In this document: one piece after another, positions 32,441 to 56,890 of the stretch
Layout of the letters: each line of letters begins with the position of its first letter
Position numbering within the stretch: position 1 is the first letter of the stretch
Assembly: GCA_021848625.1 (NCBI GenBank)
Contig: JAJZUD010000002.1
Span: 1-62,767, forward strand
Reading direction: 5' to 3'
DNA: 62,767 nucleotides
From: Pseudomonadota bacterium
GTDB taxonomy: Bacteria; Pseudomonadota; Gammaproteobacteria; Francisellales; CACEW01
Notes under the pieces: model-generated
What the model was told of the DNA's origin: nothing
Database searches by the model: none
Seen by the model: the letters and a program-made list of their open reading frames with translations, nothing else
Position numbers and translations under genes: made by a program

Positions 32441-32552
32441 GTTTTTAGAAAAAATCCGACAATTGTAAAGCTTAGCTTAATTTGCAACAAAAATTTGCAC
32501 ATTGTCCATGTGTTATGATAGCTTGTTTGTAATTCATGAGGTTGTTTTCAAT

Positions 32553-41722: not shown

Positions 41723-42067
41723 ATGTACGAAGTTGAATATACAGATGAGTTCGAGCGCTGGTGGGAGGACTTAAGCGAGGCTGAACAGATCAGCATCGCA
41801 GCGAGTGTGGGACTGTTGGAGCGTTTAGGCCCACAGCTTAAATATCCGCATTCCTCTGGGATTGAAGGTTCTAAGTATGAGCATATGCGGGAACTTAGGA
41901 TTCAACATAAAGGCAAGCCGTATCGCATCCTTTATGCCTTTGATCCTCGCAGAGTTTCCATTTTATTGATCGGAGGCAATAAAACAGGAGATGATCGCTG
42001 GTATGACAAAATGATTCCAATCGCAGATCAGTTATATGAGGAACATCTAATCGAAATTTCAAAGTAA
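41723..42067 (+). CDS. type II toxin, RelE/ParE superfamily (HigB / Gp49-like)
   Basis: YTDEFERWW..L.E.EQ..I...V..L...GP.L..PHSS.I.GSKY..MRELR....GKPYRILYAFDPRR..ILLIGGNKTG pattern typical of the Gp49-like toxin family. Confidence 0.8.
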   Translation: MYEVEYTDEFERWWEDLSEAEQISIAASVGLLERLGPQLKYPHSSGIEGSKYEHMRELRIQHKGKPYRILYAFDPRRVSILLIGGNKTGDDRWYDKMIPIADQLYEEHLIEISK

Positions 42068-42093
42068 ATAAAGAGAAAAACGGAGAGAAAAAA

Positions 42094-42402
42094 ATGGCAA
42101 AATCATTCAATACTTTAAGGGATAAGATGCCCGCAAAAGCTTTAAAAAAAGCAGATCAACTCATGGAAAAAATGATGCTGGATATGCCTTTGCAAGAGTT
42201 GCGTCAGGCAAGGAGCTTGAGTCAGGAACGCCTTGCAAAACTTCTGGATACCAAACAGGCGAATATTTCGCGTATTGAAAAAAGAGCGGATATGTACATT
42301 TCAACCTTGCGCAGCTATGTTCAAGCAATGGGTGGGGAATTGCAGATTATTGCGCATTTTCCAGAGGGAAATGTCAGGATTAATCAGTTTCAAGAGATTT
42401 AA
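42094..42402 (+). CDS. XRE-family HTH antitoxin (HigA-like)
   Basis: LQELRQARSLSQERLAKLLDTKQANISRIEKR HTH. Sits 26 nt downstream of the toxin (toxin-first order). Confidence 0.8.
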   Translation: MAKSFNTLRDKMPAKALKKADQLMEKMMLDMPLQELRQARSLSQERLAKLLDTKQANISRIEKRADMYISTLRSYVQAMGGELQIIAHFPEGNVRINQFQEI

Positions 42403-42557
42403 GAAGCGCTCTTTTATATCGCGGCTGATAAGGCGGGGGTGTACAAATGGCTACACAGATTGCATAACGAAAACGGCATTTTACAGAAGATGCCTACAAA
42501 CGCTTAGACGCACTGCCACGCGGCGCATGGAAGCACCGCAAGCAGCGCAAAGTCGAT

Positions 42558-43863: not shown

Positions 43864-43899
43864 TGTCAAATTTTGGAGCTTCTTCCGCGCATTGGAGCT

Positions 43900-44784
43900 T
43901 TATAAATGATAGGATTTAAAACAAGCGATGATTTTCTTAAATGCCAAATTATGACTCGTAGGGCGATAATACAAAAAAACAGGGATTTCAAGAGGCTCTG
44001 TATCGAGACATATTTCTTCCAACAATCCTGCTTTTACTTCATCAACAACTAAATGCTCAGCGCACCAACCCAGGCCAAAACCACCCAGCAATGCAAGCAT
44101 AAAGTTTGTAGAAGAGTCTGAACTGTAACTCCCTGTGACCTTCACTTTATTATTTTTGTTAAAGGCCCATATTCCAGTGGGAGAGGTTTTTTGAAAAATT
44201 AAGCAATTATGATCGCCTAGTTCGCTCGTTTTTTTAGGAGATCCCCATTTCTGAATATAGCTTGGTGCGCCATAAATTTTGCGGCGAATATTGAAAAGAG
44301 GCTCTTTAATTAATCCTGTTTCAAATAGGTTTTCCTCAGTGATGCTGAAATTGAGAAATCCATCTAAAATGAATTGCGGCGAGATTTCATTTTGAAAGTG
44401 GACTGAAATTTTAGGATGCTCTTCTAAGAAATGATGGATATGGCCCATGAATTTTGGTGTGTTGACTACCCCTGATATGCCGACCACGATTTCACCATGG
44501 GCGCTATTCTCAAGCTGATTCAGTGCATCATCGCCTTGCGTAATGCTTTCTAAGATTTTTTGGGCCTGTGTAAAATAGATTCGTCCGGCTTCGGTTAATT
44601 CAATACGTCTCGTGGTTCTTTCAAGTAAAGGCTTTTTAAGGCGGTGTTCTAATGTCTGAATTTGCTTGGTTAAAACGGAAGTAGATAAATACAACTTTCT
44701 TCCCGCTGCAGAAAAGCTATTACACTCTACGACGGCGACAAATCCTTGCAAGCACGAAAGGAAGTCTAATGCCATTAGGTTCAA
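43900..44784 (-). CDS. LysR-family transcriptional regulator
   Basis: N-terminal HTH FVAVVECNSFSAAGRKLYLSTSVLTKQIQTLE plus a substrate-binding domain. Divergent from the amidase array. Confidence 0.9.
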   Translation of the reverse strand: MNLMALDFLSCLQGFVAVVECNSFSAAGRKLYLSTSVLTKQIQTLEHRLKKPLLERTTRRIELTEAGRIYFTQAQKILESITQGDDALNQLENSAHGEIVVGISGVVNTPKFMGHIHHFLEEHPKISVHFQNEISPQFILDGFLNFSITEENLFETGLIKEPLFNIRRKIYGAPSYIQKWGSPKKTSELGDHNCLIFQKTSPTGIWAFNKNNKVKVTGSYSSDSSTNFMLALLGGFGLGWCAEHLVVDEVKAGLLEEICLDTEPLEIPVFLYYRPTSHNLAFKKIIACFKSYHL

Positions 44785-44947
44785 TTCCTAAGAAAGATTC
44801 AGAACAGATATCATAATAGCAGGGTTGATGATTGCAAGCATAGATTGTTTCCATTTTTAAAAGAAATTATTTCCATAATATTGACCTATACTTTTCGCAT
44901 GAAAATGCGCTAAGATAAAAGGCGTAAAATAACAAAAGGAGCCTATT

Positions 44948-46351
44948 GTGGATAATGTTTTATACAAAACAACCGAAGAATTACGTCAACTTTATCGAAA
45001 AAAAGAGCTTTCACCTGTTGAGGTCATTGATCTCAATCTCAAGCGTATTGAAGCAACAAACCCTACCTATAATTATGTCATTTACGTGGATGCCGAAAAA
45101 GATCGTCAACAAGCAAAATTAGCTGAAAAAGCCTACCAACAAGGTGGTGATGTGCCTTATTTAACAGGCATTCCTCTCACTATCAAAGGCAATGTAGCAG
45201 TTAAAGATGAGCCCCTGACACAGGGTTCCTATGCATTAAAAGATAATGTTGCTAAAGAAAACGATATTATGACGGAGCGTTTATTAAGCTTGGGTGGGAT
45301 TAATGTTGCAAGAACGAATTTACCTGAGTTTTGCCATAAGATGCTGACTGACAATCCTTTATTCGGTTATACCAGCAGTCCTTTCAATATTGAATATTCT
45401 CCAGGTGGGTCTTCAGGTGGTGCAGCCGTTGCCTTGATTGCAGGGGTGGGTACCATGGCCATAGGCTCAGATGGTGGCGGCTCCATTCGTTGTCCTGCAT
45501 CTTGTTCTAATTTGGTTGGGCTCAAAGCCACTACGGGCACGATTCCAGATCCAGGCTGGGGAGATGTGTTTGGCGCTTATCCGATGCGAGGTCCCATGGC
45601 GCGTACAGTACAAGATTGCGCAATTATGTTTGCCATTACTGCAGGTCCTGCAAAAGAAGATCTTTTCAGTCAATTCCAGCCTTCTTTTTCACTAGAAACA
45701 GCACTTTCTCTCAAAGGCAATGTCAAAGGTTTAAAAGTGGCTTATATTGAAAAATTCCGCAATGAACCCATTGACCCAGAAGTATCACGCTTGTGTCGCC
45801 AAGCTGTTGAGAATATGCAGCAGCATGGTGCGATTGTTGAAAATGTTTCTGGAGAAATATTTAACGATGTCGGTGACTTTTATGTGTTGCTGCACACCAC
45901 GGTTCACGCCACGCTTATCGACAAATTCGTGAAAGAGTATGGCGACAAAATGTCTCACTCAATGTTAGGATGCATCGCCCAAGGAAAAACTTTTTCAGCT
46001 GTAGAGCATCAAGCAGCCATGATAAAGAGAACAACTTTATGGCGAAACGTCCAAAATATACTAAAAAAATATGATGTGATCATCTCGCCTACTTTGACTG
46101 AGCCTATGCAGAAACTAGAGGCAGGCGGGGCCATGAATACCGACCTCTTTAAAAAATGGTGCCCTTACACTTACCCCTTTAATATTACTGGAAACCCCGC
46201 ATTAACGGTTCCAGCTGGATTATCTAAAGAGGGCTTGCCTGTTGGAGTGCAGATTGTAGGACCCTGGCATTCTGAAAAGCGCTTGTTTGAAATAGCGCAA
46301 TTCATGGAGGATACCCAGCCATGGAGCCAGCTCTATCCCAAAAATATTTGA
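44948..46351 (+). CDS. amidase (amidase-signature family)
   Basis: GGSSGGAAVALIAG...GSDGGGSIRCPAS signature. GTG start after an AAGGAG RBS. Confidence 0.9.
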   Translation: MDNVLYKTTEELRQLYRKKELSPVEVIDLNLKRIEATNPTYNYVIYVDAEKDRQQAKLAEKAYQQGGDVPYLTGIPLTIKGNVAVKDEPLTQGSYALKDNVAKENDIMTERLLSLGGINVARTNLPEFCHKMLTDNPLFGYTSSPFNIEYSPGGSSGGAAVALIAGVGTMAIGSDGGGSIRCPASCSNLVGLKATTGTIPDPGWGDVFGAYPMRGPMARTVQDCAIMFAITAGPAKEDLFSQFQPSFSLETALSLKGNVKGLKVAYIEKFRNEPIDPEVSRLCRQAVENMQQHGAIVENVSGEIFNDVGDFYVLLHTTVHATLIDKFVKEYGDKMSHSMLGCIAQGKTFSAVEHQAAMIKRTTLWRNVQNILKKYDVIISPTLTEPMQKLEAGGAMNTDLFKKWCPYTYPFNITGNPALTVPAGLSKEGLPVGVQIVGPWHSEKRLFEIAQFMEDTQPWSQLYPKNI

Positions 46352-46364
46352 CCTCAGGAGGACG

Positions 46365-47552
46365 ATGAACATTCAATCTAGAAAACCATCAGTGTTGATT
46401 CTCATGCTGGTGGTCTCATTCGCCTCTTTTTGTGGTTTTTTAATGACCCCCGCGCTAACAGTCATTGCCTCATCGTTTCAAGTAACCGTCGGCGCAGCTC
46501 AGCTTGTGATTCTTGTTTATCTGGTGGGCTATGCGATTGGGCAATTAATTTATGGGCCAATTGCAAATCGCTGGGGACGTAAAAAAGGACTTTATTTAGG
46601 CGTTACCCTTCAGCTGTGTGGGTCCATCTTGTGTATTGTTGGAGCCTATGCACCGTCGTTTGATATCCTCTTGGTGGGGCGGTTTATTATGGCTTTAGGT
46701 GCATGTGCAGGAATGGTGATTGCTTATGCTATGGTGAGTGATGCTTACCCTTTAACGGAGTCACGGCGGGTTGTTTCCTATCTGGTTTTGGCATTTGCAA
46801 TATTAACAGGGGTTTCCACTTCTATTGGCGGGATGTTAGTGACTTATATTTCTTGGCAGTCTTGTTTTTGGTTTTTGCTCTGTTATGGCGTGGTGATTTT
46901 TTTATTATGTCTCCTTTTGCCTGAAACTGCAGATCTTTCTAAAAGTAAACCCATTGACTTACCGACAATTTTTAAAAGTTATGGTCTGATTTTAAAAGCC
47001 CCTGTTTTTTGGGGATTGAGTGTATTAATAGGTTGTACGGCAACTTATATTTATGTATTTGCCGCATCCGCACCTGTTTTGGCCATCCAAAATCTTGGAT
47101 TAAGTGCCGCGAGCTTTGGCTATTTCAATTATATTGTGACAGCAGGTTATTTCTTGGGGAATGTTTTCACGATTGCGAGTGCTCGAAAAATAAATGAAAA
47201 AACCTCTATTGCCACAGGTATTTTGATTGCGACCTTGGGCAGTTTGATTTTAGCAGGGAGTTTTTTAAGTGGGCACCTTACTATTTTTACTTTATTTTTT
47301 TCGGGGATGCTTATTTTTCTGGGACTTCCTTTTATTCTTTCCAATTGCACTGCAACTTTAATGAGTATCATGGAGGACAAGTCAAATACCTCTGCAGCAA
47401 TGAGCTTTATGAATGTGGCTTGTGCTTGTGTTGGAATGGTACTGATGAGCTTATTTCATCGCCATCTCTCTGAAGTGGTTGCCATTATTTTTATGGTTTT
47501 AGTTGTTCTGATGCTCAGTCTCTATCAAGTGTTCCGGTCTGCCCAACGCTAG
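46365..47552 (+). CDS. MFS transporter (Bcr/CflA-like)
   Basis: 12 TM segments; GQLIYGPIANRWGRKKGL loop motif. Confidence 0.85.
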   Translation: MNIQSRKPSVLILMLVVSFASFCGFLMTPALTVIASSFQVTVGAAQLVILVYLVGYAIGQLIYGPIANRWGRKKGLYLGVTLQLCGSILCIVGAYAPSFDILLVGRFIMALGACAGMVIAYAMVSDAYPLTESRRVVSYLVLAFAILTGVSTSIGGMLVTYISWQSCFWFLLCYGVVIFLLCLLLPETADLSKSKPIDLPTIFKSYGLILKAPVFWGLSVLIGCTATYIYVFAASAPVLAIQNLGLSAASFGYFNYIVTAGYFLGNVFTIASARKINEKTSIATGILIATLGSLILAGSFLSGHLTIFTLFFSGMLIFLGLPFILSNCTATLMSIMEDKSNTSAAMSFMNVACACVGMVLMSLFHRHLSEVVAIIFMVLVVLMLSLYQVFRSAQR

Positions 47553-47560
47553 GAATTGCT

Positions 47561-48352
47561 ATGCATGCACCAAAAATTTTTGTTTTGAAAGGGAGTGGCA
47601 CACCTGACTACGATGGGCTTATCCAAGGCATTTCTGAATGTTCTGCTAATGATTGGAAAAGTTTTTTAGCAGAATGCGGTGATGTGTCCATGACGGAATT
47701 AGAAAGATTTAAAGCCATCGCAAGGTCTGGGTATTATCCTGTTGGCTCGGTTTTTGTTTTTCCTGGGGGACATGTAATGCGTATTTCCGACGCATTGGAA
47801 CTAGGTGCGGTTGCTTCTGATGGAGAAACTCCTGTGCTGTCTCGAACTGGAATTGCAATTAAACAAGTGCTCAATAACCCAGGCTTAAGGTTTCGTGCTC
47901 TCGGAAGTTGTGCAGGTGCTGCACTTTTAAGCCGTGAATTACAAATTAACTATCCAGGATTCCCTCCCCTGCCTTGCTTAGGCATTTTGCCTGACACAGC
48001 GGCAATTGGGTCGTTGCATAAGGGGCCTGCAATGCATGAATTGCTTGACGGTAGAGATGCAATTCCAGCGCAACTGGGCTGGGATAATATTGGATTTAGT
48101 TCTGATAAAAAAGAATCCGAAGTTGTGGCAACGTATAAATCCGGCACCACAGCAATTATGCAAAATTCTAAAGCATTTGCGACAGGACCGCACCTTGAAG
48201 CAATGCATGAAGGTTCAGAGTTGCGAGCCCTAGCGGAAAAGACTCAAGGTGTTACCCTGCCATTTTTTGCAACAGCGGAAACAGAAGTAGCCTCAGCCAG
48301 AGCTGCAAAAAAAATGGTAGATAATTTTTTACGTCCTGAGACAAAGGAATGA
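47561..48352 (+). CDS. hypothetical protein, possible class I glutamine-amidotransferase-like fold (BPL_N-like)
   Basis: Candidate nucleophile elbow LGSCAGAALL and late GPHLE (HPE-like) motif. Stop overlaps the moaD start by 4 nt. Confidence 0.4.
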   Translation: MHAPKIFVLKGSGTPDYDGLIQGISECSANDWKSFLAECGDVSMTELERFKAIARSGYYPVGSVFVFPGGHVMRISDALELGAVASDGETPVLSRTGIAIKQVLNNPGLRFRALGSCAGAALLSRELQINYPGFPPLPCLGILPDTAAIGSLHKGPAMHELLDGRDAIPAQLGWDNIGFSSDKKESEVVATYKSGTTAIMQNSKAFATGPHLEAMHEGSELRALAEKTQGVTLPFFATAETEVASARAAKKMVDNFLRPETKE

Positions 48353-48612
48353 GCCCCATGAAAATTTATTTTAACGGTTTTGGTGCAACCAAAATACTCA
48401 GTGGTTACTGCATCGAAGTTGAAAAAAACAGCAGTGTCTCTGCAATCAAAAAAAAGCTGATCACTTCAATTAAAACGCAGGATCAATATGCTGGTTTAAA
48501 TGAGCTGCTGCTCACTACTGCTTTTGCCAGTGATGAATGCGTATTTGATGATGATGAAATGATTACTCAGGATATGACTCTGAACCTATTACCTCCGGTG
48601 TGTGGTGGATAA
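48349..48612 (+). CDS. moaD: molybdopterin synthase sulfur-carrier subunit (MoaD/ThiS ubiquitin-like)
   Basis: 87 aa (or 84 from MKIYF) ending ...LLPPVCGG, the diglycine C-terminus of MoaD. Confidence 0.75.
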   Translation: MSPMKIYFNGFGATKILSGYCIEVEKNSSVSAIKKKLITSIKTQDQYAGLNELLLTTAFASDECVFDDDEMITQDMTLNLLPPVCGG

Positions 48613-49609
48613 GCGTTATCTTTCACAGCAAAACCTCCCGGAGATAGGCGTTGAGGGGCAGTTAAAACTTGCTGCGAGTAAAGTGCTGGTGGTGGGCTGT
48701 GGCGGTTTGGCCGCAGCGGTATTGCCCTATCTCGCCGCTGCGGGAGTAGGAACCATCACGCTGATGGATGAGGATCAGGTCTGTGAGAGTAATCTAAACC
48801 GTCAAGTATTATTCAACGACGCTGATATTGGGCTTAATAAGGCGCTTGTGCTTCAGCGCCAATTGCAGCAGCAAAATCCAGCAATCCATATCGTTGCATT
48901 GCCAAAAAAATTTGATTTGGAAAATGGAGTTGACTTAACAAAAGCGCACGATTTGGTTATTGATTGCAGTGACCATTATTTTAGCAAAGTCACCATCAAC
49001 TATTGTTGTGTGCGAAGCAATACTCCCCTTGTATATGCCTCTGTGCTGGGCTGGGATGGTCAAGCTGCTTTATTCACAATGAAGGATCAAGACCCTTGTT
49101 ATAAATGCTGGCAAAAATTAGCTCCACAAGCAATCAATACTTGTACTCAGAGTGGAGTACTCGGAGCCTCAGTCAGCATAGTGGGCAGCCATCAGGCGAG
49201 TTTGGCATTACAATATTTGCTGGGCTACTTGCAGCATGCAAACTTTCTTTTTGTTTTTGATTTATGGAGTTTGAAGCAGCAAAAATTCAAACTTCAGCAG
49301 CGCAAGGATTGCAAGCTGCATTTCAGTCAAACGCAGCCACTGCCGTCGATTGCTTGGTCTGAATTAGAACGAATTGCCCCCTATGTTTTATTAGATGTCA
49401 GGACAATAGGAGAATGGGAGCTTGGTCATTTACCTGGAGCAAAACAAGTCAGCCCAGGGCAACTCCTTCAGCCAGAGCAGTACAATAAAACAGACAATTT
49501 GGTTATTTACTGCAATCAAGAATGGGTAAGTAGCTGTGTCGTCGAAAATCTACAAAATCTAGGTTATAACGCCTTTGTCCTAAAAGGGGGTTATGCAGCA
49601 TGGCATTAA
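48602..49609 (+). CDS. moeB: MoeB/ThiF-family adenylyltransferase fused to a C-terminal rhodanese domain (MOCS3/MoeZ-like)
   Basis: [36 protein letters not shown] nucleotide-binding motif. C-terminal rhodanese ([21 protein letters not shown] ... [10 protein letters not shown]). Confidence 0.8.
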
Positions 49610-50814
49610 AACGTCCCATTTATTTGGATCATGCGGCGACAACCAAAATTGACCCCCGCGTACTCGACAAAATGCTGCCCTTTTTAACGGAGGAATTTGG
49701 CAATCCAGCTTCACAGGCCCATGTCTTTGGCTGGAGCGCTGAAAAAGCAGTAGAAAATGCGCGTAAGCAAGTGGCCGCAACAGTGGGCTGTGATCGTAAT
49801 GAAATTATTTGGACATCCGGTGCAACAGAGTCAATTAATCTAGCCCTTAAAGGGGCCGCTAATTTTTATCAAAATCGTGGCAAGCATTTGATAACCATCA
49901 AAACCGAACATAAAGCCACGCTGGACACGATGCATGAGCTAGAGCGTACTGGTTTTAGGGTGACTTATCTCGTTCCTGAAAGAAGTGGGCTGATTGATTT
50001 AGATAAATTATCTGCAGCGATTTGCCAGGATACGATTCTGGTTTCTGTCATGCTGGTTAATAATGAGGTGGGAGTGATTCAAGATATTGCTGCGATTGGC
50101 GCGCTATGCAGAGAAAAAAAAGTAATCTTTCATGTGGATGCAGCCCAGGCCGTCGGCAAAGTGGAATTCAATTTGAAACAGATTGATTTGATGAGTTTTT
50201 CTGCGCATAAAGCCTATGGTCCCAAAGGGGTAGGTGCATTGTATGTTTGTCGTCATCCCCGGATTGATCTGATGCCAATTATTCATGGCGGCGGGCATGA
50301 GCGTGGCTTTAGGTCTGGGACGCTTGCTCCTCATCAAATTGTGGGGATGGGGGAGGCTTTTGCCATCGCTGGACAAGAAATGCAGGCAGAATTACCCCGA
50401 ATTCGCGCGCTGCGGGATCAATTATTACAGGGTCTTCAGTCTTTAGAAGCAATTCATGTCAACGGCGATCTGAGCCAATCTGCCCCGCATTACTTGAATA
50501 TCAGTTTTGTGGGAGTTGAGGCCGATGCGCTCATGCGGGAATTGAAAGAGCTTGCAGTCTCGAGTGGATCGGCCTGTACTTCAGCCTCTCTGGAGCCTTC
50601 TCATGTGCTGCAGGCCTTGGGAATCAGTGATACACTGGCTCGTAGCTCAATTCGTTTCACAATAGGACGATTTAATAGTGCAGAAGAGATTGACTACAGT
50701 ATCCAATTAGTGACTAAGGTGGTGAATAAGCTTCGAGATTCATCCCCGTTGTGGGAAATGTTCAAAGAAGGGATAGCCATAGGAGGGATTGAAAATGAAA
50801 AAAAAGGATGCTGA
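49600..50814 (+). CDS. cysteine desulfurase (IscS/NifS family)
   Basis: [24 protein letters not shown] (PLP Lys), SSGSACTS (active-site Cys). Confidence 0.9.
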
Positions 50815-53116
50815 AAATAAGGGTAAGGTAAAAACCTATAAGTCTCCGGCAGCCGGTTGGGGAGCGCTGAAGTCAGTCACCACGCATATGGCTAAAGAAA
50901 AAGTATCCCCGACGAATTATAAAATGATATTCAAGCAGAATCAGCCCAAAGGCTTTGATTGCCCTGGATGCGCATGGCCCGATCGAGAACATACTTCTAC
51001 CTTTGAGTTTTGCGAAAATGGCATTAAAGCCGTCGCTGCTGAAGCCACCAGCAAACGGGTCACTCAAGAGTTTTTTGCACAAAATAGCGTGACACAACTC
51101 ATGCAGGAATCTGATTATGAGCTTGAAGAGCATGGCCGTTTGACTTCTCCCATGGTCTATGATGAAACAACAGATCACTACAAGCCGATTAGTTGGGATG
51201 ATGCCTTTCAACTTATTGCTCATCATCTCAAGCAACTTCCTGATCCCAATATGGCTAGCTTCTACACCTCTGGTAGGGCCAGTAACGAAGCTGCTTTTTT
51301 GTATCAGCTCTTCGCGCGCTGTTATGGAACGAACAATTTTCCTGACTGCTCAAACATGTGTCATGAAGCGACCAGTCGTGGGTTACCCCTCACTGTCGGC
51401 GTAGGCAAAGGCACGGTTAATTTTGATGATTTTGAACATACTGATACTTTGCTGCTTTTTGGCCATAATCCAGGAACCAATCATCCGCGAATGTTGGGAG
51501 AGCTTCGTGAATGTGCAAAGCGGGGCGCGATGATCGTCTCTATCAACCCCTTGCGCGAGCGAGGCCTAGAGAGATTTACCAGTCCTCAAAGTCCATTAGA
51601 AATGCTCACGTTATCAAGCACGGATTTGTGTTCTGCATTTGTGCAACCCAAACTAGGGGGGGATTTCGCTTTAATTAAAGCCATTGCAAAAGGCGTGCTA
51701 GAGCTTGATGATGCTGCTGTAAAGGCAAAGACAGAGCGGATTTTGGATGTGGAATTTATCAATACGCATACGCAGGGCTTTGAGGATTTTGCAAATGATT
51801 TACGTCACGCCAATTGGGATGAATTAGTCGAAATATCAGGCGTACCCTACCCCCAAATCGAAGCATTAATTAAAATTTACGTGAAGGGTAAAGCCGTCAT
51901 TTGCACTTGGGGCATGGGGTTAACCCAGAATAAACATGCCGTGGCAACCATTCAAATGCTATCCAATTTAATGATGATGCGAGGCAATATCGGTAAGCGT
52001 GGCGCAGGGTTGTGTCCGTTACGAGGGCATTCGAATGTTCAAGGGGATAGAACAGTTGGAATTGAAGAGCGCCCCACTCCCGAGTTTTTGGATCGCCTGA
52101 AGAAAGTCTTTGATTTTGAACCCCCAAGGGAGCATGGTCTTGATGTGGTCAATACGGTCAAAGCGATGCTGGAAGGAAAGGTCAAAGTCTTTTTTGGCTT
52201 GGGCGGCAATTTTGCAATGGCGACTCCAGAAACGCCCCGGACATGGGAGGCATTGAGATCCTGTAACTTAACAGTTCACGTCACCACTAAACTCAACCGC
52301 AGTCATTTAGTGCATGGTAAAGATGCATTGATCTTGCCCACTTTGGGTCGCACAGAAGTAGATGTTCAGGCTGGAAAACAACAAGGAATTACGGTTGAAG
52401 ATTCGTTTAGCTCCGTTCATGTCTCATTTGGTCTCAATAAACCCGCATCACCAGACCTGCGTTCAGAAATTGCCATTGTTGCAGGAATGGCGCATGCAGT
52501 TTTAGGAAGTGAAAAAATTAAGTGGCTGTGGTATGTCGATGATTATTCAAGAATCAGAGACGCAATTGAACAGGTTTTTGATGATTTTAAAGATTTTAAT
52601 AAACGGATTGAAATTCCAGGTGGCTTTAATTTATATAGTCCTGCTCGTGAACGCATTTGGAAAACCAAAAGCGGTAAGGCACAGTTTATCGTTAACGGCT
52701 TTGAGCAAGATACCCCAGTCAGTCGTGCTAAAAAGCGCTATGGAAAAGAGCTGATGTTGCTGATGACTTTTAGATCCCATGATCAATATAATACCACGAT
52801 TTACGGACTGAATGACCGTTATCGCGGCATCTTTGATCAAAGGCAGGTTTTATTTGCCAATGCTCAAGATATTGAGCGCTTAGGATATACCCCTGGGGCG
52901 CTAGTCGATATTGAAAGTATTTGGGATGATAGCGTCAAACGCCTCGTCAAAAAATTTGTATTGGTTGAATATGATATTCCGCCAGGCTGTCTGGCTGCTT
53001 ACTATCCGGAAACCAATCCACTCGTTCCATTAGAAAGCGTTGCAGATTTGGCAGGTACACCGACTTCAAAGCTAATTCCGGTCATCCTCAGCGCTTCTGC
53101 TGCTGATATGGAGTAA
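50795..53116 (+). CDS. FdhF/YdeP-family molybdopterin oxidoreductase (formate-dehydrogenase-alpha-like, substrate unknown)
   Basis: AGWGALKSV ... [15 protein letters not shown] ... [13 protein letters not shown] ... [10 protein letters not shown], typical of the YdeP subgroup. ATG at 50795 follows AGGAGGG. Confidence 0.85.
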
Positions 53117-53136
53117 ATGTCATACAAACGCCAGGC

Positions 53137-53907
53137 ATGATCACACAATCCATCATTTGCCATGATGGCGAAACAAAGAAGGCGGATAGTGATTTCGTCG
53201 TTCAAGAAACGCCGATTGCATTGGTTTACAATGGGATTTCCCATGCGGTGATGATGGCAACGCCCACGGATCTGAAAGAATTTGCCGTCGGATTCACTCT
53301 CACAGAGGGAATTGTAGGTAGCCCGGAAGATATTTATGATACTGAGATTGTGGTCCATGATACGAATGTTGAAATAAAATTGACTCTTTCACAGCAATCT
53401 TTTTCTCAATTGAAAACGCAACGTCGTGCGATGTTGGGTAGAACGGGATGTGGAGTATGTGGCATCGAAAACATCGAATTATTAGACTTAAATCCAGACC
53501 CCATTAACCATCCCTTAGAAAAATTATCCGTATCTACCACAACCATTGAGCGAGCATCGAAACAGCTCTTACAGCATCAATTTTTAACAGCTAAAACAGG
53601 GGGGGCTCATGCAGCGGCCTGGTGTCATCATGATGGTGAAGTATTAAAAGCATTTGAAGATGTAGGCAGGCATAATGCCCTGGATAAGTTGATCGGGTAT
53701 TTAGCATTAAATGAAATTGAAATATCTCAGGGATTTGTGTTTATGTCGAGTCGCGGCAGTTATGAGCTCGTCAGAAAAGTTGCACGCATGAATATTGCTT
53801 TATTGGCAACGATCTCAGCACCTACATCGTTGGCCATAGAAATTGCAAAAAAAGCCAAAGTTGCGCTAATATGTTTTTGTCGCAACAATCGATTTATCGA
53901 ATATTAA
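53137..53907 (+). CDS. fdhD: formate dehydrogenase accessory sulfurtransferase FdhD
   Basis: GRTGCGVCG active-site loop, EDVGRHNALDKLIG, SSRGSYELV. Confidence 0.9.
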   Translation: MITQSIICHDGETKKADSDFVVQETPIALVYNGISHAVMMATPTDLKEFAVGFTLTEGIVGSPEDIYDTEIVVHDTNVEIKLTLSQQSFSQLKTQRRAMLGRTGCGVCGIENIELLDLNPDPINHPLEKLSVSTTTIERASKQLLQHQFLTAKTGGAHAAAWCHHDGEVLKAFEDVGRHNALDKLIGYLALNEIEISQGFVFMSSRGSYELVRKVARMNIALLATISAPTSLAIEIAKKAKVALICFCRNNRFIEY

Positions 53908-53926
53908 TATTAATCAGGATATTTTT

Positions 53927-54367
53927 ATGCAAACACTAATTGAATTTTGTGATCACCCCATTGAGACCAGTCATTACCTCGCTCAAACAGTCAATTATGA
54001 ATTCGGTGCTTTGGATTTGTTTATCGGGAAAGTGCGTAACTTTAATCAAAATCGAGATGTCATGGGTGTTCATTACGAGGCGTTTATTCCGCTAGCACAA
54101 AAAATTCTTGAGGAGTTATGTGTTCAAGCCAAAAAAGAGACAAACAGTGATCTTGATATCATTATTATTCATCGCCTGGGATACTTAAACGTGGGCGAAA
54201 TCAGCATCCTCATTGCGGTGGGCTCCAAACATCGTAATGAAGCTTTTGTGGGATGCCGTTATTTGATTGAGCAAATCAAGCATCAAGTCCCTATTTGGAA
54301 GCAAGAACACTATACGGATGGCAAAAGCGAGTGGGTGAAAGGACATGTCCTGTGTCAACATGAATGA
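53927..54367 (+). CDS. moaE: molybdopterin synthase catalytic subunit
   Basis: GALDLFIGKVRN...V....YEAF ... VGSKHR..AF..C.YLI..IK..VPIWKQEHY. Confidence 0.85.
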   Translation: MQTLIEFCDHPIETSHYLAQTVNYEFGALDLFIGKVRNFNQNRDVMGVHYEAFIPLAQKILEELCVQAKKETNSDLDIIIIHRLGYLNVGEISILIAVGSKHRNEAFVGCRYLIEQIKHQVPIWKQEHYTDGKSEWVKGHVLCQHE

Positions 54368-55025
54368 GGTCGCTGTTGCTATTTTAGCGGGGGGCGCATC
54401 CTCACGCATGGGACAAGATAAAGCAGGCCTGCGATTGCCGAACAATCAAACGCTTCTGGAATATATGTTTGCTCAGTTTCAAGATTATTTTGTTTTTAGC
54501 AGTGGGCATAGGACGACGGGTTCTGTTCCTGACCTTTTTGATTCAAGGCTCGGGCCTGTTGCGGGGATTATCAGCTCAATTACATGGCTCAAAGATACGC
54601 ATCCTCATATCAAGCAATGTGTTTTTATTCCAGTCGATTTAGCCTATTTCTCAACAAAAGATTTAGCCAGATTGATTGCAGCAGAATATCAAGTCGCATA
54701 CTTTAAGGATCATCCATTGCCGTTGAAAATAGAAATATCTTCTATGGTATTAGACGTTTTTCAAGATGTAATGAACGAAATGCAGGCGATGGGTGGGTAT
54801 CCGGTTTATCGATTTATTCAGCAATTTAAGTCTAGGGTTGAGTTAATCAATGCGATACCAAAAAGTTTAACCAACATAAACTATAGGGACGACTGGGATA
54901 TTTTTTTAAATGATTATTTAAGTGGCGGAGTGAATCCAGTTTCTTGCAAAAAAGTGGCATTATCCCACAATGCTTCAAGCGACCCTTGCAGTGCTATTTT
55001 ACCTGATTTTAATAAGATTACTTGA
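54345..55025 (+). CDS. mobA: molybdenum cofactor guanylyltransferase
   Basis: AVAILAGGASSRMGQDKAGL N-terminal motif. Start may be the Met at 54360. The last 112 nt overlap convergent modC. Confidence 0.75.
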   Translation: MSCVNMNEVAVAILAGGASSRMGQDKAGLRLPNNQTLLEYMFAQFQDYFVFSSGHRTTGSVPDLFDSRLGPVAGIISSITWLKDTHPHIKQCVFIPVDLAYFSTKDLARLIAAEYQVAYFKDHPLPLKIEISSMVLDVFQDVMNEMQAMGGYPVYRFIQQFKSRVELINAIPKSLTNINYRDDWDIFLNDYLSGGVNPVSCKKVALSHNASSDPCSAILPDFNKIT

Positions 55026-55513
55026 TCTGCAAGGCGCACTAGTTCTGACTCATTGTGCGTGACGTACAAAATAGGGATATTGATTTTTTGACGCAAATGC
55101 AGCAGCGCGTTTAATACTTCTGCCTTGCTGATACAATCCAAAGCAGAAACAGGTTCGTCCATTAATAAAATTTCTGGACTCATTAAAACACTGCGTGCAA
55201 TGACAATCCGTTGTCGCTCGCCCCCTGACAACTTGGGAATATCACGTTCAAGTAAAGGGCGAATGTTCAGCCAGTCAATCACTTCGCCATCTGTAAAAAT
55301 GCGCTTTTCTTTAGGGACGCGCCGATATCCGAATAAGACATTTTCCTGCACGGAGAGGTGAGGGAACAAATAGGGCTCCTGCGTGACATATCCCACAGAG
55401 CGATAAGGGCTTGCGATGCCTTCGAGACCTGCAAGGCGCCGTAATAAAGTCGTTTTCCCTGCGCCTGAACGACCTACAATCACGGTGATACCGGATGCGA
55501 TTTTAAGGTTCAT
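54914..55513 (-). CDS. modC: molybdate ABC transporter ATP-binding protein, short form without TOBE domain
   Basis: Walker A GRSGAGKTTLL, signature LSGGERQRI, Walker B ILLMDEP. Only 199 aa. Operon position after modB. Confidence 0.75.
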   Translation of the reverse strand: MNLKIASGITVIVGRSGAGKTTLLRRLAGLEGIASPYRSVGYVTQEPYLFPHLSVQENVLFGYRRVPKEKRIFTDGEVIDWLNIRPLLERDIPKLSGGERQRIVIARSVLMSPEILLMDEPVSALDCISKAEVLNALLHLRQKINIPILYVTHNESELVRLADQVILLKSGKIALQGSLEALWDNATFLQETGFTPPLK

Positions 55514-56163
55514 ATCCCCATCCTCCGATAGCGATGATTCAAACTATATAGCGCAAGCAGCACCACAAATGAAAAAATCAGTAAGCCTAAAGACAAAATA
55601 TTGGCTTGATGATATTGCAATTGCTCAACATGATCATAGATATAAATCGAGATGACTTGGGTTTTTCCGGGGATATTGCCACCAATCATCAAGACTACGC
55701 CAAACTCACCCAGTGTGTGCGTGAAGCCTAAGGTGATCGCAGAGAGCAGACCCCGTCGCGACAAAGGCAGTACGACTTTAAAAAAGCGCCGTATAGAGGA
55801 ATAACCCAAAGTGTGTGCGATCTCTAAGGGTTGTTTGCCAATGGATTCAAAGGCAACCTGCAAGGGCTGTACCACAAAAGGGAAAGAATAAATCACTGAG
55901 CCCAGCACCAAGCCTTTGAATGAAAAGGCCCAACCTGCATTGGCCAGACTATTTTGGCCTAAAAGAATAAGCAAATAAAATCCTAAAACCGTTGGAGGTA
56001 AAATCAAAGGCAGTGCCACGAAGGCTTCCAATACCACTTTTAATTTTGAGTGATTTTGCGAAAGCCACCACGCAAAAGGTAAGCCAATGAGCAAAAGAAT
56101 CAAGGTACTTAAGCCTGCCAATTGTAGGCTTAAAAGCAACGCAGTGAGAGCGCTAGATTCCAT
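55510..56163 (-). CDS. modB: molybdate ABC transporter permease
   Basis: 5-6 TM segments; EAA-like loop EIAHTLGYSSIRRFFKVVLPL. Confidence 0.85.
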   Translation of the reverse strand: MESSALTALLLSLQLAGLSTLILLLIGLPFAWWLSQNHSKLKVVLEAFVALPLILPPTVLGFYLLILLGQNSLANAGWAFSFKGLVLGSVIYSFPFVVQPLQVAFESIGKQPLEIAHTLGYSSIRRFFKVVLPLSRRGLLSAITLGFTHTLGEFGVVLMIGGNIPGKTQVISIYIYDHVEQLQYHQANILSLGLLIFSFVVLLALYSLNHRYRRMGI

Positions 56164-56890
56164 AACCTGCCCGTTGAATCAGGCTTTGGATGGATTGAGA
56201 ATGCAAAAATTGCATAAAGGCCACCGCTTCAGGATTATTTTGAGCATGAAGCAATAATACGGCTTGTTGATTTAAAGGGGAATAAAATGATTGCGGCACG
56301 ATCCAAACCGAGGAGGGCTGGGGCGGCTGTACTTGTGATAAAGCAACAAACCCCATTTGCACATTCCCTGTGGCAATAAAACCATAGGCTTGGCTCACGC
56401 TCTCTCCAAAAACAAGATGTGGCATCAGCTGACCCCAGAGTTGCATATGTTGTAAGGTTTGTTTTGCAGCAAGACCATACGGCGCAAAATCAGGATTGGC
56501 TAACGCAATTTTGCCTTGTTTAAAATGGATGAGCCGCTGCTCTGTGACTGCTTGAGTTGCATTGGGTTGATAGAGTGTCAATTGGCCGATGGCATACGTC
56601 GCTCTTGAGCCTGGAATAATCTTATCTGCTTTCGCAAGTAAAAGAGGGTGTTGTTGATCTGCTGCTAAAAACAAATCATAGGGCGCGCCATGCATAATTT
56701 GTGCATACAGCACGCCTGTTGAGGCACTACTGATGAGTATTTTGACCTGATGTTGTGCTTGAAATTGTGTGGCTATTTTTTGCAATGTGGGTTCAAAATC
56801 AGCAGTCACTGCAATCGAAAGCGTGGGCTCAGCCCAGGCAATTTGCGCGGTCAGCAGTATGATTCCAAGGAGTATTTTTTGTAATATCAC
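56153..56890 (-). CDS. modA: molybdate ABC transporter substrate-binding protein
   Basis: GTG start at 56890 gives the signal peptide ILQKILLGIILLTAQIAWA and overlaps the moeA stop (GTGA). SSASTGVLYAQI and FLAADQ motifs. Confidence 0.8.
   Translation of the reverse strand: MILQKILLGIILLTAQIAWAEPTLSIAVTADFEPTLQKIATQFQAQHQVKILISSASTGVLYAQIMHGAPYDLFLAADQQHPLLLAKADKIIPGSRATYAIGQLTLYQPNATQAVTEQRLIHFKQGKIALANPDFAPYGLAAKQTLQHMQLWGQLMPHLVFGESVSQAYGFIATGNVQMGFVALSQVQPPQPSSVWIVPQSFYSPLNQQAVLLLHAQNNPEAVAFMQFLHSQSIQSLIQRAGYGI

What the first reader, a model, noticed from the sequence alone, without database searches (positions are those of the whole stretch)
44948..55025. Ten-gene co-directional array joining amidase/MFS/GATase-like genes to a YdeP-type molybdoenzyme and its cofactor machinery
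Seen: the order is amidase, MFS, 263-aa orphan, moaD, moeB-rhodanese, cysteine desulfurase, YdeP/FdhF-family oxidoreductase, fdhD, moaE, mobA. Spacers run from -26 to +20 nt (13, 8, -4, -11, -10, -20 from the 50795 start (-26 from the tracked 50789 start), 20, 19, -23), and a divergent LysR regulator sits upstream. Established: YdeP-family enzymes have no defined substrate. Inference: one transcription unit for a pathway in which an imported amide is hydrolysed and the product is oxidised or reduced by the molybdoenzyme. This could be a previously undescribed catabolic or detoxification system with its own cofactor supply.
Basis: partly seen in the sequence, partly recalled or inferred. Interest (0 to 1): 0.6.

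Follow-up and report, generated by a model that had tools for sequence, protein, structure and literature searches.

The report
Self-supplied YdeP molybdoenzyme gene island
A small-genome bacterium keeps, in one chromosomal island, a formate-dehydrogenase-like YdeP enzyme together with every gene needed to make and load its molybdenum cofactor; three amide-handling genes head the same gene row, but nothing found elsewhere ties them to the enzyme.

Summary
The ten-gene array is real and all nine spacers are as stated. It is one half of a larger unit. Six convergent genes downstream (modCBA, moeA, moaC-mog, moaA) complete a full bis-MGD molybdenum-cofactor pathway plus molybdate uptake.

YdeP is the only molybdoenzyme detected in this 1.8-Mb genome. 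It keeps the formate-dehydrogenase Cys-His-Arg site. iscS and fdhD fit the known sulfuration route for formate dehydrogenases.

- No amidase-signature amidase, orphan, moaD, moeB or iscS lies within 10 kb of ydeP in any of 80 nearest YdeP loci; only fdhD recurs, in 47 of 80.
- The one relative with YdeP (G035) has the same cofactor set but no amidase, MFS or orphan.
- The parts have different origins. ydeP nests among Burkholderiales, the moaC-mog fusion is shared with relatives, and the MFS has no homologue above 38% identity.

The orphan is a very rare glutamine-amidotransferase-like protein with a conserved Cys-His-Glu set. One transcription unit is plausible but untested.

Verdict: a new variant of a known kind, of moderate interest.

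The parts
43900..44784 (-). LysR-family regulator, divergent from the array (possible start ATG 44775)
   Evidence: Pfam HTH_1 69.5 bits and LysR_substrate 65.2 bits. Nearest NCBIfam models are YafC, AaeR and TtdR, all below their cut-offs.
44848..44866 (.). TTTC-N11-GAAA dyad (LysR-type T-N11-A box) in the 163-nt divergent intergenic region. An AAAGGAG ribosome-binding site lies at 44935-44941.
   Evidence: Read directly from the sequence. The T-N11-A consensus is recalled knowledge and binding was not tested.
44948..46351 (+). Amidase-signature (AS) family amidase, 467 aa
   Evidence: PF01425 305.9 bits. Best solved relative is aryl acylamidase 4yj6, E 2.6e-50. K80, S155 and S179 are invariant in 16 of 16 aligned homologues. 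Nearest homologues are 75, 74, 74, 62 and 61% identical on unnamed contigs, then at most 44%.
46365..47552 (+). MFS transporter, DHA1 Bcr/CflA type, 395 aa
   Evidence: MFS_1 131 bits. TIGR00710 161 bits, below its cut-off of 200.9. No database homologue above 38% identity. An own-genome paralogue on contig C43 is 38% identical.
47561..48352 (+). 263-aa orphan: class I glutamine-amidotransferase-like / BPL_N-like protein with conserved Cys117 and His211-x-Glu213
   Evidence: No Pfam or NCBIfam hit. Five representatives at E<=1e-3 among 1.84 billion, itself included. Atlas structural neighbours are BPL_N proteins at TM 0.67-0.72. Motif conservation is shown.
48349..48612 (+). MoaD-type sulfur carrier ending in Gly-Gly (likely start 48358, 84 aa)
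   Evidence: Weak match to solved MoaD 3rpf_C, E 0.18.
48602..49609 (+). MoeB-type adenylyltransferase fused to a C-terminal rhodanese domain
   Evidence: ThiF 218.9 bits plus Rhodanese 51.8 bits. The MoeB and MoeZ NCBIfam models score below their cut-offs.
49600..50814 (+). IscS-type cysteine desulfurase
   Evidence: NF010611 633.7 bits against a cut-off of 548. SSGSAC active-site loop at 321-326. A second desulfurase, 41% identical, lies on contig C17.
50789..53116 (+). FdhF/YdeP-family Mo-bisPGD oxidoreductase (likely start ATG 50795)
   Evidence: TIGR01701 929.6 bits against a cut-off of 582. Cys191-His192 and Arg412 align with SeCys140-His141 and Arg333 of E. coli FDH-H (FDH-H residue numbers recalled). 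These residues are invariant in 83 of 83 rows. The protein sits in a 16-row clade with Burkholderiales.
53137..53907 (+). FdhD sulfurtransferase/chaperone with a CGVC motif at 105-108
   Evidence: TIGR00129 217 bits against a cut-off of 140.9. Motif found.
53927..54367 (+). MoaE, molybdopterin synthase large subunit
   Evidence: PF02391 102.3 bits.
54345..55025 (+). MobA-like guanylyltransferase with a C-terminal tail of about 40 aa
   Evidence: PF12804 52.5 bits. TIGR02665 42 bits, below its cut-off.
54914..55513 (-). Short ModC (199 aa); its 3' end overlaps the mobA 3' end by 112 nt
   Evidence: TIGR02142 198 bits, below its cut-off of 285. It lacks about 18 N-terminal and about 20 internal residues compared with the ModC of G035.
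55510..56977 (-). modB (55510-56163) and modA (56153-56977), molybdate ABC permease and binding protein
   Evidence: TIGR02141 225.9 bits and TIGR01256 184.1 bits, both over their cut-offs.
56887..58125 (-). MoeA, molybdenum insertase
   Evidence: MoeA_N 149.5 bits, MoCF_biosynth 104.7 bits, MoeA_C 36.7 bits.
58112..59104 (-). MoaC-Mog fusion
   Evidence: MoaC 160.4 bits plus MoCF_biosynth 99.7 bits. The same fusion occurs in G001 (55% identity) and G035 (47%). The two are separate genes in 5 of 5 Burkholderiales genomes.
59107..60090 (-). MoaA, radical-SAM cPMP synthesis enzyme
   Evidence: Radical_SAM 101.3 bits plus Mob_synth_C 116.9 bits.

Best explanation
The array is the + strand half of a mosaic, self-sufficient molybdoenzyme island of about 15 kb (44.9-60.1 kb). 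It sits in an accessory chromosomal region that begins at a tRNA-Met and integrase at 31.1 kb.

Thirteen genes on two convergent strands exist to make one active enzyme, YdeP. The steps below are inferred from family membership; none was assayed.
1. ModABC imports molybdate.
2. MoaA and the MoaC part of the MoaC-Mog fusion make cPMP.
3. IscS gives sulfur to the rhodanese domain of MoeB.
4. MoeB adenylates and thiocarboxylates the Gly-Gly end of MoaD.
5. MoaD and MoaE turn cPMP into molybdopterin.
6. Mog and MoeA insert molybdenum.
7. MobA adds GMP to give bis-MGD.
8. FdhD, again with sulfur from IscS, puts the sulfido ligand on the cofactor and hands it to YdeP.

YdeP is a cytoplasmic, single-subunit enzyme with a formate-dehydrogenase-type Cys-His-Arg site. 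Its most likely reaction is oxidation of formate to CO2, with an unknown electron acceptor (my odds about 0.4; another small substrate otherwise).

The three 5' genes (amidase-signature amidase, Bcr/CflA-type MFS, glutamine-amidotransferase-like orphan) and the LysR regulator form a lineage-specific amide-hydrolysis and transport module. It has been joined to the front of the cofactor and YdeP genes. It is probably co-transcribed with them from a LysR-controlled promoter, but it is not a conserved partner of YdeP and need not feed it.
For: Complete pathway, with every step assigned to a gene.

YdeP is the only Mo- or W-enzyme family detected in the genome (95.6% complete). PF00384 hits only YdeP and the two halves of NuoG. 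There is no hit to PF02738, PF00174, PF03473 or PF02730.

The cofactor pathway is rare in the lineage. MoeA_N is found in 3 of 40 relatives and YdeP over its cut-off in 2 of 39.

The one relative with YdeP (G035) clusters the same set: moaC-mog, moeA, moaD, moaE, mobA, moaA, modABC, then convergent moeB-fdhD-ydeP. It has no amidase, MFS, orphan or iscS.

The active site is FDH-like and the nearest solved structures are all formate dehydrogenases.

fdhD is the only recurrent neighbour of ydeP: 47 of 80 loci, adjacent in 41. FdhD has its CXXC motif and IscS its active-site loop. The FdhD-plus-IscS sulfuration route is described in passages of PMC12140954.

The link to formate rests on passages of PMC10308882 and PMC6414531.

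Mosaic origin:
- ydeP falls in a clade (SH-like support 100) with 14 Burkholderiaceae or Oxalobacteraceae rows and one unnamed MAG.
- The moaC-mog fusion is shared with relatives G001 and G035 but is split in 5 of 5 Burkholderiales genomes.
- The MFS has no homologue above 38% identity.
- The amidase's own close homologues sit on other contigs.

The surroundings are accessory: ISAzo13 with 33-nt inverted repeats, a Gp49 toxin-like gene, Abi_2, an integrase and tRNA-Met. Positions 1-31 kb hold core genes.
Against: No expression data exist, so co-transcription and any internal promoter are open.

The tight packing argues that selection here keeps all ten genes in one unit: at most 20 nt between genes, with the orphan stop 5 nt before or 4 nt into moaD. 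That is what a shared function would also produce.

The neighbourhoods of the amidase's and the orphan's own homologues could not be read, so linkage seen from their side is untested except through contig lengths.

The formate assignment rests on active-site conservation and on genetics or induction in other clades of the family. In the tree, the Methylobacterium and Pseudomonas rows lie in clades other than the window's. No YdeP-family enzyme with a measured substrate was found.

ModC is shortened and may be impaired.

GC content of the island (0.443) does not differ from the genome (0.451), so composition gives no sign of recent transfer.

The tree is FastTree only, and the window's place inside its clade is unresolved.
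Confidence: 0.6

Rival explanations
1. One reading: one catabolic or detoxification pathway. The MFS imports an amide, the amidase (and perhaps the orphan) hydrolyses it, and YdeP oxidises or reduces the acid released. For example, a formyl- or oxalyl-type amide could give formate.
For: Ten genes lie in one tightly packed row behind one LysR regulator. All of these genes are missing from nearly all relatives, so they may have been kept together for a reason. YdeP's likely substrate, formate, is a carboxylic acid, the product class of amidases.
Against: 0 of 80 nearest YdeP loci hold an amidase-signature amidase within 10 kb; 52 of the 80 carry full flanks. 0 of 5 genomes with the closest YdeP hold a close amidase or the orphan. 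G035 has YdeP and the cofactor set without them. The amidase's best solved relatives are aryl acylamidase, FAAH and GatA. From recalled knowledge, known formamidases belong to other families. The MFS is of a type whose named members are mostly exporters. Three papers hold both 'YdeP' and 'amidase', and none is about such a pathway by title or abstract.
Confidence: 0.1
2. A shared stress role rather than a pathway: one LysR-controlled operon against acid or organic-acid stress. The amidase and the amidotransferase-like enzyme release ammonia as a proton sink, the MFS exports or exchanges the acids, and YdeP removes formate that enters as formic acid.
For: E. coli YdeP is tied to acid resistance (passages in PMC7384014 and PMC10308882). 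The DNA was found only in runs of one study labelled mine drainage metagenome: one run that may be the source, and a second with identical pieces laid at eight listed places or more. All three enzyme types could consume protons or remove weak acids; this is inference from recalled examples such as ammonia-producing amidases and glutaminases in acid resistance. A paralogous LysR-MFS pair lies beside an AaeAB-like acid exporter on contig C43.
Against: It is entirely circumstantial. The pH of the habitat is unknown. There are no expression data. The module combination occurs in no other genome examined.
Confidence: 0.15
3. The orphan works with the sulfur-carrier chemistry rather than with the amidase. 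For example, it could be a cysteine hydrolase or amidotransferase acting on the activated C-terminus of MoaD, since its stop codon abuts the moaD start.
For: The orphan stop is 5 nt before, or overlaps by 4 nt, the moaD start. The conserved Cys-His-Glu set suggests it is catalytic.
Against: G035 and G001 have the Moco genes without it. No known Moco pathway needs such a protein (recalled). The family is extremely rare, whereas MoaD and MoeB are common.
Confidence: 0.03
4. Artefact: a chimeric assembly or decaying remnants without function.
For: The genome is a metagenome-assembled genome of 112 contigs. ModC is shortened. An IS element lies next door.
Against: All 16 ORFs are open and carry their catalytic motifs. 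The same contig carries core genes such as yidC, rnpA, thyA and prfC. A public contig spans 42000-61444 without a difference, and a second run holds identical pieces.
Confidence: 0.02

Closest known systems
E. coli YdeP (EvgA-regulated acid-resistance putative oxidoreductase) and the FdhF/YdeP family, TIGR01701
   Same: The family model scores 929.6 bits against a cut-off of 582. The two molybdopterin domains are the same, and the Cys-His-Arg site is FDH-like.
   Different: It is not an equivalog of the E. coli protein: NF007406 scores 849.9 against a cut-off of 1473. Here the gene is embedded in a full cofactor pathway and preceded by amidase, MFS and orphan genes.
M. extorquens Fdh4AB and P. 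putida PP_0256/PP_4596 with FdhD PP_0257
   Same: Same family, according to the paper (passages). fdhD lies beside ydeP, as in 41 of 80 loci and in the Pseudomonas loci L049-L057. The link to formate rests on genetics and induction.
   Different: The window's protein is 50-56% identical to these rows and lies in another clade. No fdh4B-type partner was looked for successfully. The Moco genes of those organisms are not at the locus.
FdhD-IscS sulfuration of bis-MGD for E. coli formate dehydrogenases
   Same: FdhD has its CXXC motif and an IscS-type desulfurase is present. The mechanism is described in PMC12140954 (passages).
   Different: Here a dedicated iscS copy sits immediately upstream of ydeP and fdhD. 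iscS was found beside ydeP in 0 of 80 other loci.
YdeP and Moco supercluster of relative G035 (locus L008)
   Same: The same 13 functions are clustered on two convergent strands, including the moaC-mog fusion and a short ModC without a C-terminal regulatory domain.
   Different: YdeP is only 43% identical and lies far away in the tree. Gene order differs, MoeB has no rhodanese domain, and there is no iscS, amidase, MFS, orphan or LysR. It is flanked by housekeeping genes.
Variovorax modBAC-ydeP-fdhD loci (L023, L024)
   Same: Molybdate uptake genes lie directly beside ydeP and fdhD.
   Different: There are no cofactor biosynthesis genes and no amidase module.
Aryl acylamidase 4yj6 and other amidase-signature enzymes (GatA, FAAH)
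   Same: Same family, with the catalytic Lys-Ser-Ser positions conserved.
   Different: The match to the solved structures is distant (best E 2.6e-50). No NCBIfam amidase model reaches its cut-off; the best is NF004815 at 365 against 506. The substrate is unknown.
Stand-alone BPL_N / class I glutamine-amidotransferase-like proteins
   Same: Predicted fold (TM 0.67-0.72), similar length of about 260 aa, and a G-x-C-x-G nucleophile elbow followed by His-x-Glu.
   Different: No Pfam model matches the window's protein. The best family member, P0006, reaches 20.4 bits against a cut-off of 24.2. The family has only 5 representatives in 1.84 billion.

Membership tests
FdhF/YdeP family oxidoreductase (TIGR01701) | Whole-protein score over the curated cut-off | tested here: met
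   929.6 bits against 582.15.
FdhF/YdeP family oxidoreductase (TIGR01701) | Molybdopterin oxidoreductase domain plus dinucleotide-binding domain | tested here: met
   PF00384 83.7 bits and PF01568 28.8 bits.
FdhF/YdeP family oxidoreductase (TIGR01701) | FDH-type metal ligand Cys followed by His, and the catalytic Arg | tested here: met
   Cys191-His192 and Arg412 align with SeCys-His and Arg of FDH-H 1aa6. They are invariant in 83 of 83 rows. Residue roles are recalled.
FdhF/YdeP family oxidoreductase (TIGR01701) | N-terminal Cys set for a [4Fe-4S] cluster | tested here: inconclusive
   C58, C61, C75 and C187 are invariant in 83 of 83 rows. Which of them bind a cluster was not established.
E. 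coli YdeP equivalog (NF007406) | Score over the equivalog cut-off | tested here: not met
   849.9 bits against 1473. It is a family member, not the same protein.
Formate dehydrogenase (function) | Formate oxidation activity | not testable with these tools
   Only active-site conservation and literature on other family members are available.
MoaD/ThiS sulfur carrier | Match to Pfam ThiS (PF02597) | tested here: not met
   No hit even at E<=1.
MoaD/ThiS sulfur carrier | C-terminal Gly-Gly, beta-grasp fold, gene beside its E1 (MoeB) | tested here: met
   The protein ends in CGG. The Atlas model has TM 0.92 to a ThiS cluster and a feature score of 0.92 with 209 shared features. It overlaps moeB by 11 nt. 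PPVCGG is shared with the MoaD of G035.
Complete bis-MGD cofactor pathway | MoaA, MoaC, MoaD, MoaE, MoeB, Mog, MoeA and MobA all present | tested here: met
   MobA and MoeB score below their NCBIfam equivalog cut-offs but over the Pfam cut-offs.
Complete bis-MGD cofactor pathway | Functional molybdate uptake (ModABC) | tested here: inconclusive
   ModA and ModB score over their cut-offs. ModC scores 198 against 285 and is shortened by about 18 N-terminal and about 20 internal residues.
FdhD sulfurtransferase | Family score and the CXXC motif | tested here: met
   TIGR00129 217 bits against 140.9. CGVC at 105-108.
Amidase signature family | PF01425 match and the Lys-cisSer-Ser catalytic positions | tested here: met
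   305.9 bits. K80, S155 and S179 are invariant in 16 of 16. Residue roles are recalled.
Class I glutamine amidotransferase-like / BPL_N | Sequence-model match | tested here: not met
   No Pfam or NCBIfam hit for the window's protein. Homologue P0006 reaches BPL_N at 20.4 bits against 24.2.
Class I glutamine amidotransferase-like / BPL_N | Fold and Cys-His-Glu set | tested here: inconclusive
   The Atlas's own model (pTM 0.85) has BPL_N neighbours at TM 0.67-0.72. My two AlphaFold2 models were poor, with pLDDT 34 and 52. Cys117 is invariant in 6 of 6, and His211-x-Glu213 is kept in 5 of 5 full-length rows.
   0 of 80 loci, 0 of 5 genomes, and G035 lacks them.
   No RNA holder was listed. The sequence signals are compatible with one transcript.

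The most novel reading that the evidence does not exclude
The ten genes form one LysR-controlled stress operon of a new kind. In it, two ammonia-releasing hydrolases (an amidase-signature amidase and a very rare amidotransferase-like enzyme), a transporter and a formate-oxidising YdeP act together against acid or weak-acid stress. The operon was assembled in a small-genome bacterium from mine drainage that pays for a whole molybdenum-cofactor pathway only to run this one enzyme. It would be the first natural setting in which the physiological role of a YdeP-family enzyme can be read from its operon partners.
Probability: 0.15. Interest if true: 0.65.

Novelty: new variant of a known kind. Interest (0 to 1): 0.4.

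Why it matters
YdeP-family enzymes are widespread, and in E. coli they are tied to acid resistance. No substrate measured with a purified enzyme turned up in my searches.

In this genome of about 1.8 Mb, the whole molybdenum-cofactor pathway, molybdate uptake, a private IscS and FdhD appear to be kept for this one enzyme. That argues the enzyme is valuable to its owner. It also offers a minimal natural gene set, 13 helper genes plus ydeP, that defines what a YdeP needs to be active.

The locus is a clear example of an enzyme clustered with its complete cofactor supply in lineages that otherwise lack it: 3 of 40 relatives have MoeA.

The 263-aa orphan adds a very rare branch to the glutamine-amidotransferase-like fold.

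The more exciting claim, a new amide-degrading pathway ending in YdeP, is not supported by comparative evidence.

Tried and rejected
- Structure of the orphan. Two AlphaFold2 jobs, on alignments of 2 and 6 rows, gave pLDDT 34.3 and 51.8. That is too poor for a fold search, so none was run and I relied on the Atlas model.
- Complex of amidase with orphan. The verdict was 'no answer', score 0.00. It is not evidence either way.
- Metagenome scans. The orphan alignment found no relative. The amidase found only two distant pieces, at 31% and 34% identity.
- Neighbourhoods of the amidase homologues (P0009-P0013) and orphan homologues (P0003-P0007). The tool that fetches encoding contigs is closed, so I could only compare contig lengths. 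Those differ: 19984, 7599, 2225, 8979 and 1799 against 2026, 2642, 13565, 2055 and 1243.
- Expression. No RNA holder was listed. The one RNA run laid gave only pieces of about 35-55 nt, under 95% alike, mostly on the IS element.
- Promoter and terminator scans were not above shuffles: 18 against 28.7 promoter-like sites and 10 against 13.9 terminator-like sites.
- No Moco riboswitch or other regulatory RNA was found in 42000-62767 at E<=1, apart from an abiF motif.
- No direct repeat marking the ends of the island was found.
- GC content gives no island signal.
- The earlier-findings tool was not open.
- A maximum-likelihood tree with the default method did not finish in time. A FastTree was used instead.
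- The fdh4B partner could not be picked out in Methylobacterium locus L079, because of the many overlapping ORFs in high-GC DNA.
- I considered and rejected the amidase as a formamidase. Its nearest solved relatives are aryl acylamidase, FAAH and GatA.

Full report
**1.

The nine spacers derived from them are 13, 8, -4, -11, -10, -26, 20, 19 and -23.

Pfam and NCBIfam confirm eight identities outright:
- amidase-signature amidase;
- MFS of the Bcr/CflA type;
- ThiF/MoeB with a C-terminal rhodanese domain;
- IscS (633.7 bits against a cut-off of 548);
- FdhF/YdeP family oxidoreductase (929.6 bits against 582);
- FdhD;
- MoaE;
- MobA-like transferase.

A LysR gene lies divergent, 163 nt upstream. 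That spacer holds a TTTC-N11-GAAA dyad at 44848-44866 and an AAAGGAG ribosome-binding site before the amidase start.

The 87-aa 'moaD' matches no family model.
- It ends in Gly-Gly.
- It shares PPVCGG and 32% identity with the ORF at the moaD position in a relative.
- It sits with ThiS/MoaD clusters in the ESM Atlas (feature score 0.92, 209 shared features, TM 0.92).

Ribosome-binding sites suggest that moaD starts at 48358 and ydeP at 50795.

With a crude ORF caller, this is one of 3 runs of ten or more tightly packed co-directional ORFs among 926 runs in the genome.

**2. The unit is larger than the finding**

Six genes lie convergent to the array: modC, modB, modA, moeA, a moaC-mog fusion and moaA (54914-60090, minus strand). 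Together with moaD, moeB, moaE and mobA they cover every step of bis-MGD cofactor synthesis, plus molybdate uptake.

FdhD carries its CGVC motif and IscS its SSGSAC loop. In E. coli, FdhD together with IscS puts the sulfido ligand on the cofactor of formate dehydrogenases (PMC12140954, passages). This explains why a desulfurase sits directly before ydeP and fdhD. The rhodanese domain on MoeB gives the same desulfurase a route to MoaD; this step is inferred from recalled knowledge of MoeZ- and MOCS3-type fusions.

**3. One enzyme, thirteen helpers**

The window's own genome has 1,816,868 bases in 112 contigs and is 95.6% complete.
- PF00384 finds only YdeP and the two halves of a NuoG-like gene.
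- The xanthine-dehydrogenase, sulfite-oxidase, MOSC and tungsten AOR families find nothing.
- No formate channel and no pyruvate formate-lyase were found.

On present evidence, the whole cofactor pathway serves YdeP alone.

**4. The set is rare in the lineage and recurs as a set**

Among relatives of the same genus, family and order:
- The orphan was found in 1 of 40 scored genomes, the window's own.
- YdeP over its cut-off was found in 2 of 39, G000 and G035.
- MoeA_N was found in 3 of 40: G000, G001 and G035.
- A close amidase was found in none. The three matches at E<=1e-40 other than the gene itself are 30-31% identical GatA-like genes: one in G000 itself and two in relatives.
- One or two genomes per search were served only in limited form and were not scored.

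G035 clusters moaC-mog, moeA, moaD, moaE, mobA, moaA and modABC, then convergent moeB-fdhD-ydeP, among housekeeping genes. It has no amidase, MFS, orphan or iscS.

G001 has moaA, moaC-mog and moeA in the window's order on a 2.3-kb contig.

**5. What YdeP most likely does**

Its nearest solved structures are all formate dehydrogenases: FdhF of a CO2 reductase, R. capsulatus FdsA and E. coli FDH-H.

Cys191-His192 align with the selenocysteine-histidine pair of FDH-H, and Arg412 with its catalytic arginine (residue roles recalled). These residues, and C58, C61, C75 and C187, are invariant in 83 of 83 aligned rows. The 83 rows are the window, 80 loci, and G035 counted twice.

The literature seen:
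- PMC10308882 (passages): two P. putida FdhF/YdeP-family genes and the adjacent fdhD are induced by formate. They are 59% identical to Fdh4A of M. extorquens, which the authors cite as involved in formate oxidation.
- PMC6414531 (passages): fdh4 is the only single FDH knockout with a measurable growth effect.
- PMC13094775 (abstract and passages): still calls ydeP uncharacterised in 2026.
- PMC7384014 (one passage): recalls only its putative role in acid resistance.

I found no measured substrate in three searches. Formate oxidation is therefore my best guess, at about 0.4, and not a shown fact. No twin-arginine leader is visible in the N-terminus, so the enzyme should be cytoplasmic. Its electron acceptor is unknown.

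**6.

The 80 best YdeP loci among species-representative genomes were fetched with up to 10 kb on each side; 52 have full flanks. They were searched with all window proteins by tblastn, at E<=1e-5 and at least half the query covered.

| Gene | Loci with a match, of 80 |
|---|---|
| fdhD | 47 (within 600 nt in 41, same strand in 36) |
| amidase | 0 |
| orphan | 0 |
| moaD | 0 |
| moeB | 0 |
| iscS | 0 |
| moaE | 0 |
| mobA | 1 |
| modA and modB | 2 (Variovorax) |
| MFS | 2 (opposite strand, 8-9 kb away) |

Further checks agree:
- The five genomes with the closest YdeP hold no close amidase (E<=1e-60) and no orphan-family member anywhere.
- A sample of 400 genomes of the class holds no close amidase at E<=1e-80.

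It remains possible as a one-off.

**7. The three 5' genes**

The amidase has the amidase-signature Lys-Ser-Ser positions, invariant in 16 of 16 homologues. Its nearest solved relatives are an aryl acylamidase, FAAH and GatA. Its nearest homologues (75, 74, 74, 62 and 61% identical) are on unnamed contigs of 1.8-20 kb.

The MFS has no homologue above 38% identity among the candidates scored. None of those homologues lies on a contig of the same length as an amidase-homologue contig. Its best match in its own genome (38%) belongs to a LysR-MFS pair beside an acid exporter on contig C43.

The orphan is very rare:
- One homologue was found in the word-indexed search of 5.8 billion proteins.
- Five representatives at E<=1e-3 were found in an exhaustive HMMER search of 1.84 billion, itself included.
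- None was found in JGI metagenomes.

The six-row alignment keeps G115, C117, A118 and G119 in every row, and His211-x-Glu213 in the five full-length rows. The Atlas's own model (pTM 0.85) has stand-alone BPL_N proteins as its structural neighbours (TM 0.67-0.72), and its features point to class I glutamine amidotransferases.

My own AlphaFold2 models were too poor to use. A complex prediction of amidase with orphan gave no answer.

**8. Origins**

In a FastTree of 82 YdeP rows, the window's protein sits in a 16-row clade (SH-like support 100). The rest of that clade is 14 Burkholderiaceae or Oxalobacteraceae rows and one unnamed MAG. The best identity is 70%. G035's protein is on a long branch elsewhere.

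The adjacent fdhD is 51-57% identical to the fdhD beside those Burkholderiales genes.

In contrast, the moaC-mog fusion is shared by G000, G001 and G035 but is split into two distant genes in 5 of 5 Burkholderiales genomes.

The array is therefore a mosaic:
- ydeP and fdhD probably came from Burkholderiales.
- The cofactor genes are of the lineage's own type.
- The MFS and LysR are perhaps native.
- The amidase and orphan are of unknown source.

GC content does not mark the island: 0.443 against 0.451.

The surroundings are accessory: tRNA-Met and an integrase at 31.1 kb, metal-efflux ATPases, a Gp49 toxin-like gene, a complete ISAzo13 element and an Abi_2 gene with its abiF RNA motif. The first 31 kb are core chromosome.

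**9. Integrity and habitat**

A public contig of 29,673 bases covers 42000-61444 without a single difference. It is possibly from the source sample. A second run of the same study holds identical pieces across the amidase-MFS junction, moeB, iscS, ydeP, modB and moaC-mog. Both runs are labelled mine drainage metagenome. This is one study, so it is a weak pointer to habitat. No RNA evidence was obtained.

**10. Verdict**

The best-supported reading is a self-sufficient YdeP island: a formate-dehydrogenase-like enzyme with its complete cofactor, sulfuration and molybdate-uptake genes. A lineage-specific LysR-amidase-MFS-amidotransferase-like module has been fused in front of it, probably into one transcript.

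A looser shared role in acid or weak-acid stress cannot be excluded and is the most novel reading left.

Against known systems this is a new variant: a known enzyme family, a known cofactor pathway and a known FdhD-IscS maturation route, in an unusually complete and compact arrangement, with a very rare extra protein.

Noticed in passing
window 54914-55513 (-) and 54345-55025 (+): modC is short (199 aa). Compared with the ModC of relative G035, it lacks about 18 N-terminal residues and about 20 residues between the Walker A motif and the Q-loop, and like G035's it has no C-terminal regulatory domain. Its 3' end overlaps the 3' end of mobA by 112 nt, convergently. mobA carries a tail of about 40 aa beyond the family model. 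ModC may be eroding.
   Followed up: partly
window 31119-31195 (-), 31379-32440 (+): tRNA-Met lies next to a phage-type integrase. Everything from here to the contig end is accessory-looking: two P-type ATPases at 32502-34742 (with an HMA domain) and 35928-38255, then Usp, CMD, a rhodanese membrane protein, EamA, an ArsR-type HTH protein, Gp49, an IS element, the Mo island and Abi_2. Positions 1-31 kb hold core genes. No flanking direct repeat was found.
   Followed up: partly
window 42558-43863: A complete ISAzo13-family element. The transposase is at 42599-43804 (-), flanked by 33-nt inverted repeats that are 97% complementary (42558-42590 and 43831-43863), directly beside the LysR gene. Its depth in the metagenome runs is several times that of the flanks, and related copies from other organisms map there.
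   Followed up: partly
window 61211-61248 (-): An abiF RNA motif (RF03085, 41.8 bits against a gathering score of 37) lies inside the 5' part of the called Abi_2 ORF (60274-61368, minus strand). The real start of that gene is therefore probably downstream of the motif.
   Followed up: no
G000 contig C43, 20000-26615 (locus L098): A paralogous arrangement: a LysR regulator (26% identical) lies divergent from a 204-aa ORF without a family and an MFS (38% identical to the window's MFS), beside an AaeAB-like aromatic-acid exporter pair (FUSC plus HlyD). The window's LysR-MFS pair may descend from a native efflux module.
   Followed up: partly
G001 contig C114 (locus L091, 2316 bases): A species of the same genus carries moaA, moaC-mog and moeA in the same order as the window, at 55, 55 and 40% identity. 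No YdeP, amidase or orphan was found in that fragmented assembly (440 contigs, 6% contamination).
   Followed up: partly
G000 contigs C98:20-430 and C17:36939-37760: The only other PF00384 matches in the genome are the two halves of a NuoG-like gene, split across two contig ends. This suggests C98 and C17 adjoin.
   Followed up: no
window 41723-42067 (+): A Gp49/HigB-like toxin-family ORF is followed by a 102-aa ORF (42094-42402) that could be its antitoxin. The second ORF was not scanned.
   Followed up: no
G000 contig C17, 18244-20091 (locus L099): The genome's second IscS/NifS-like desulfurase (41% identical to the island copy) lies next to a TrhO-like rhodanese, with no iscU nearby. The island copy is the only one that passes the IscS equivalog cut-off.
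   Followed up: partly
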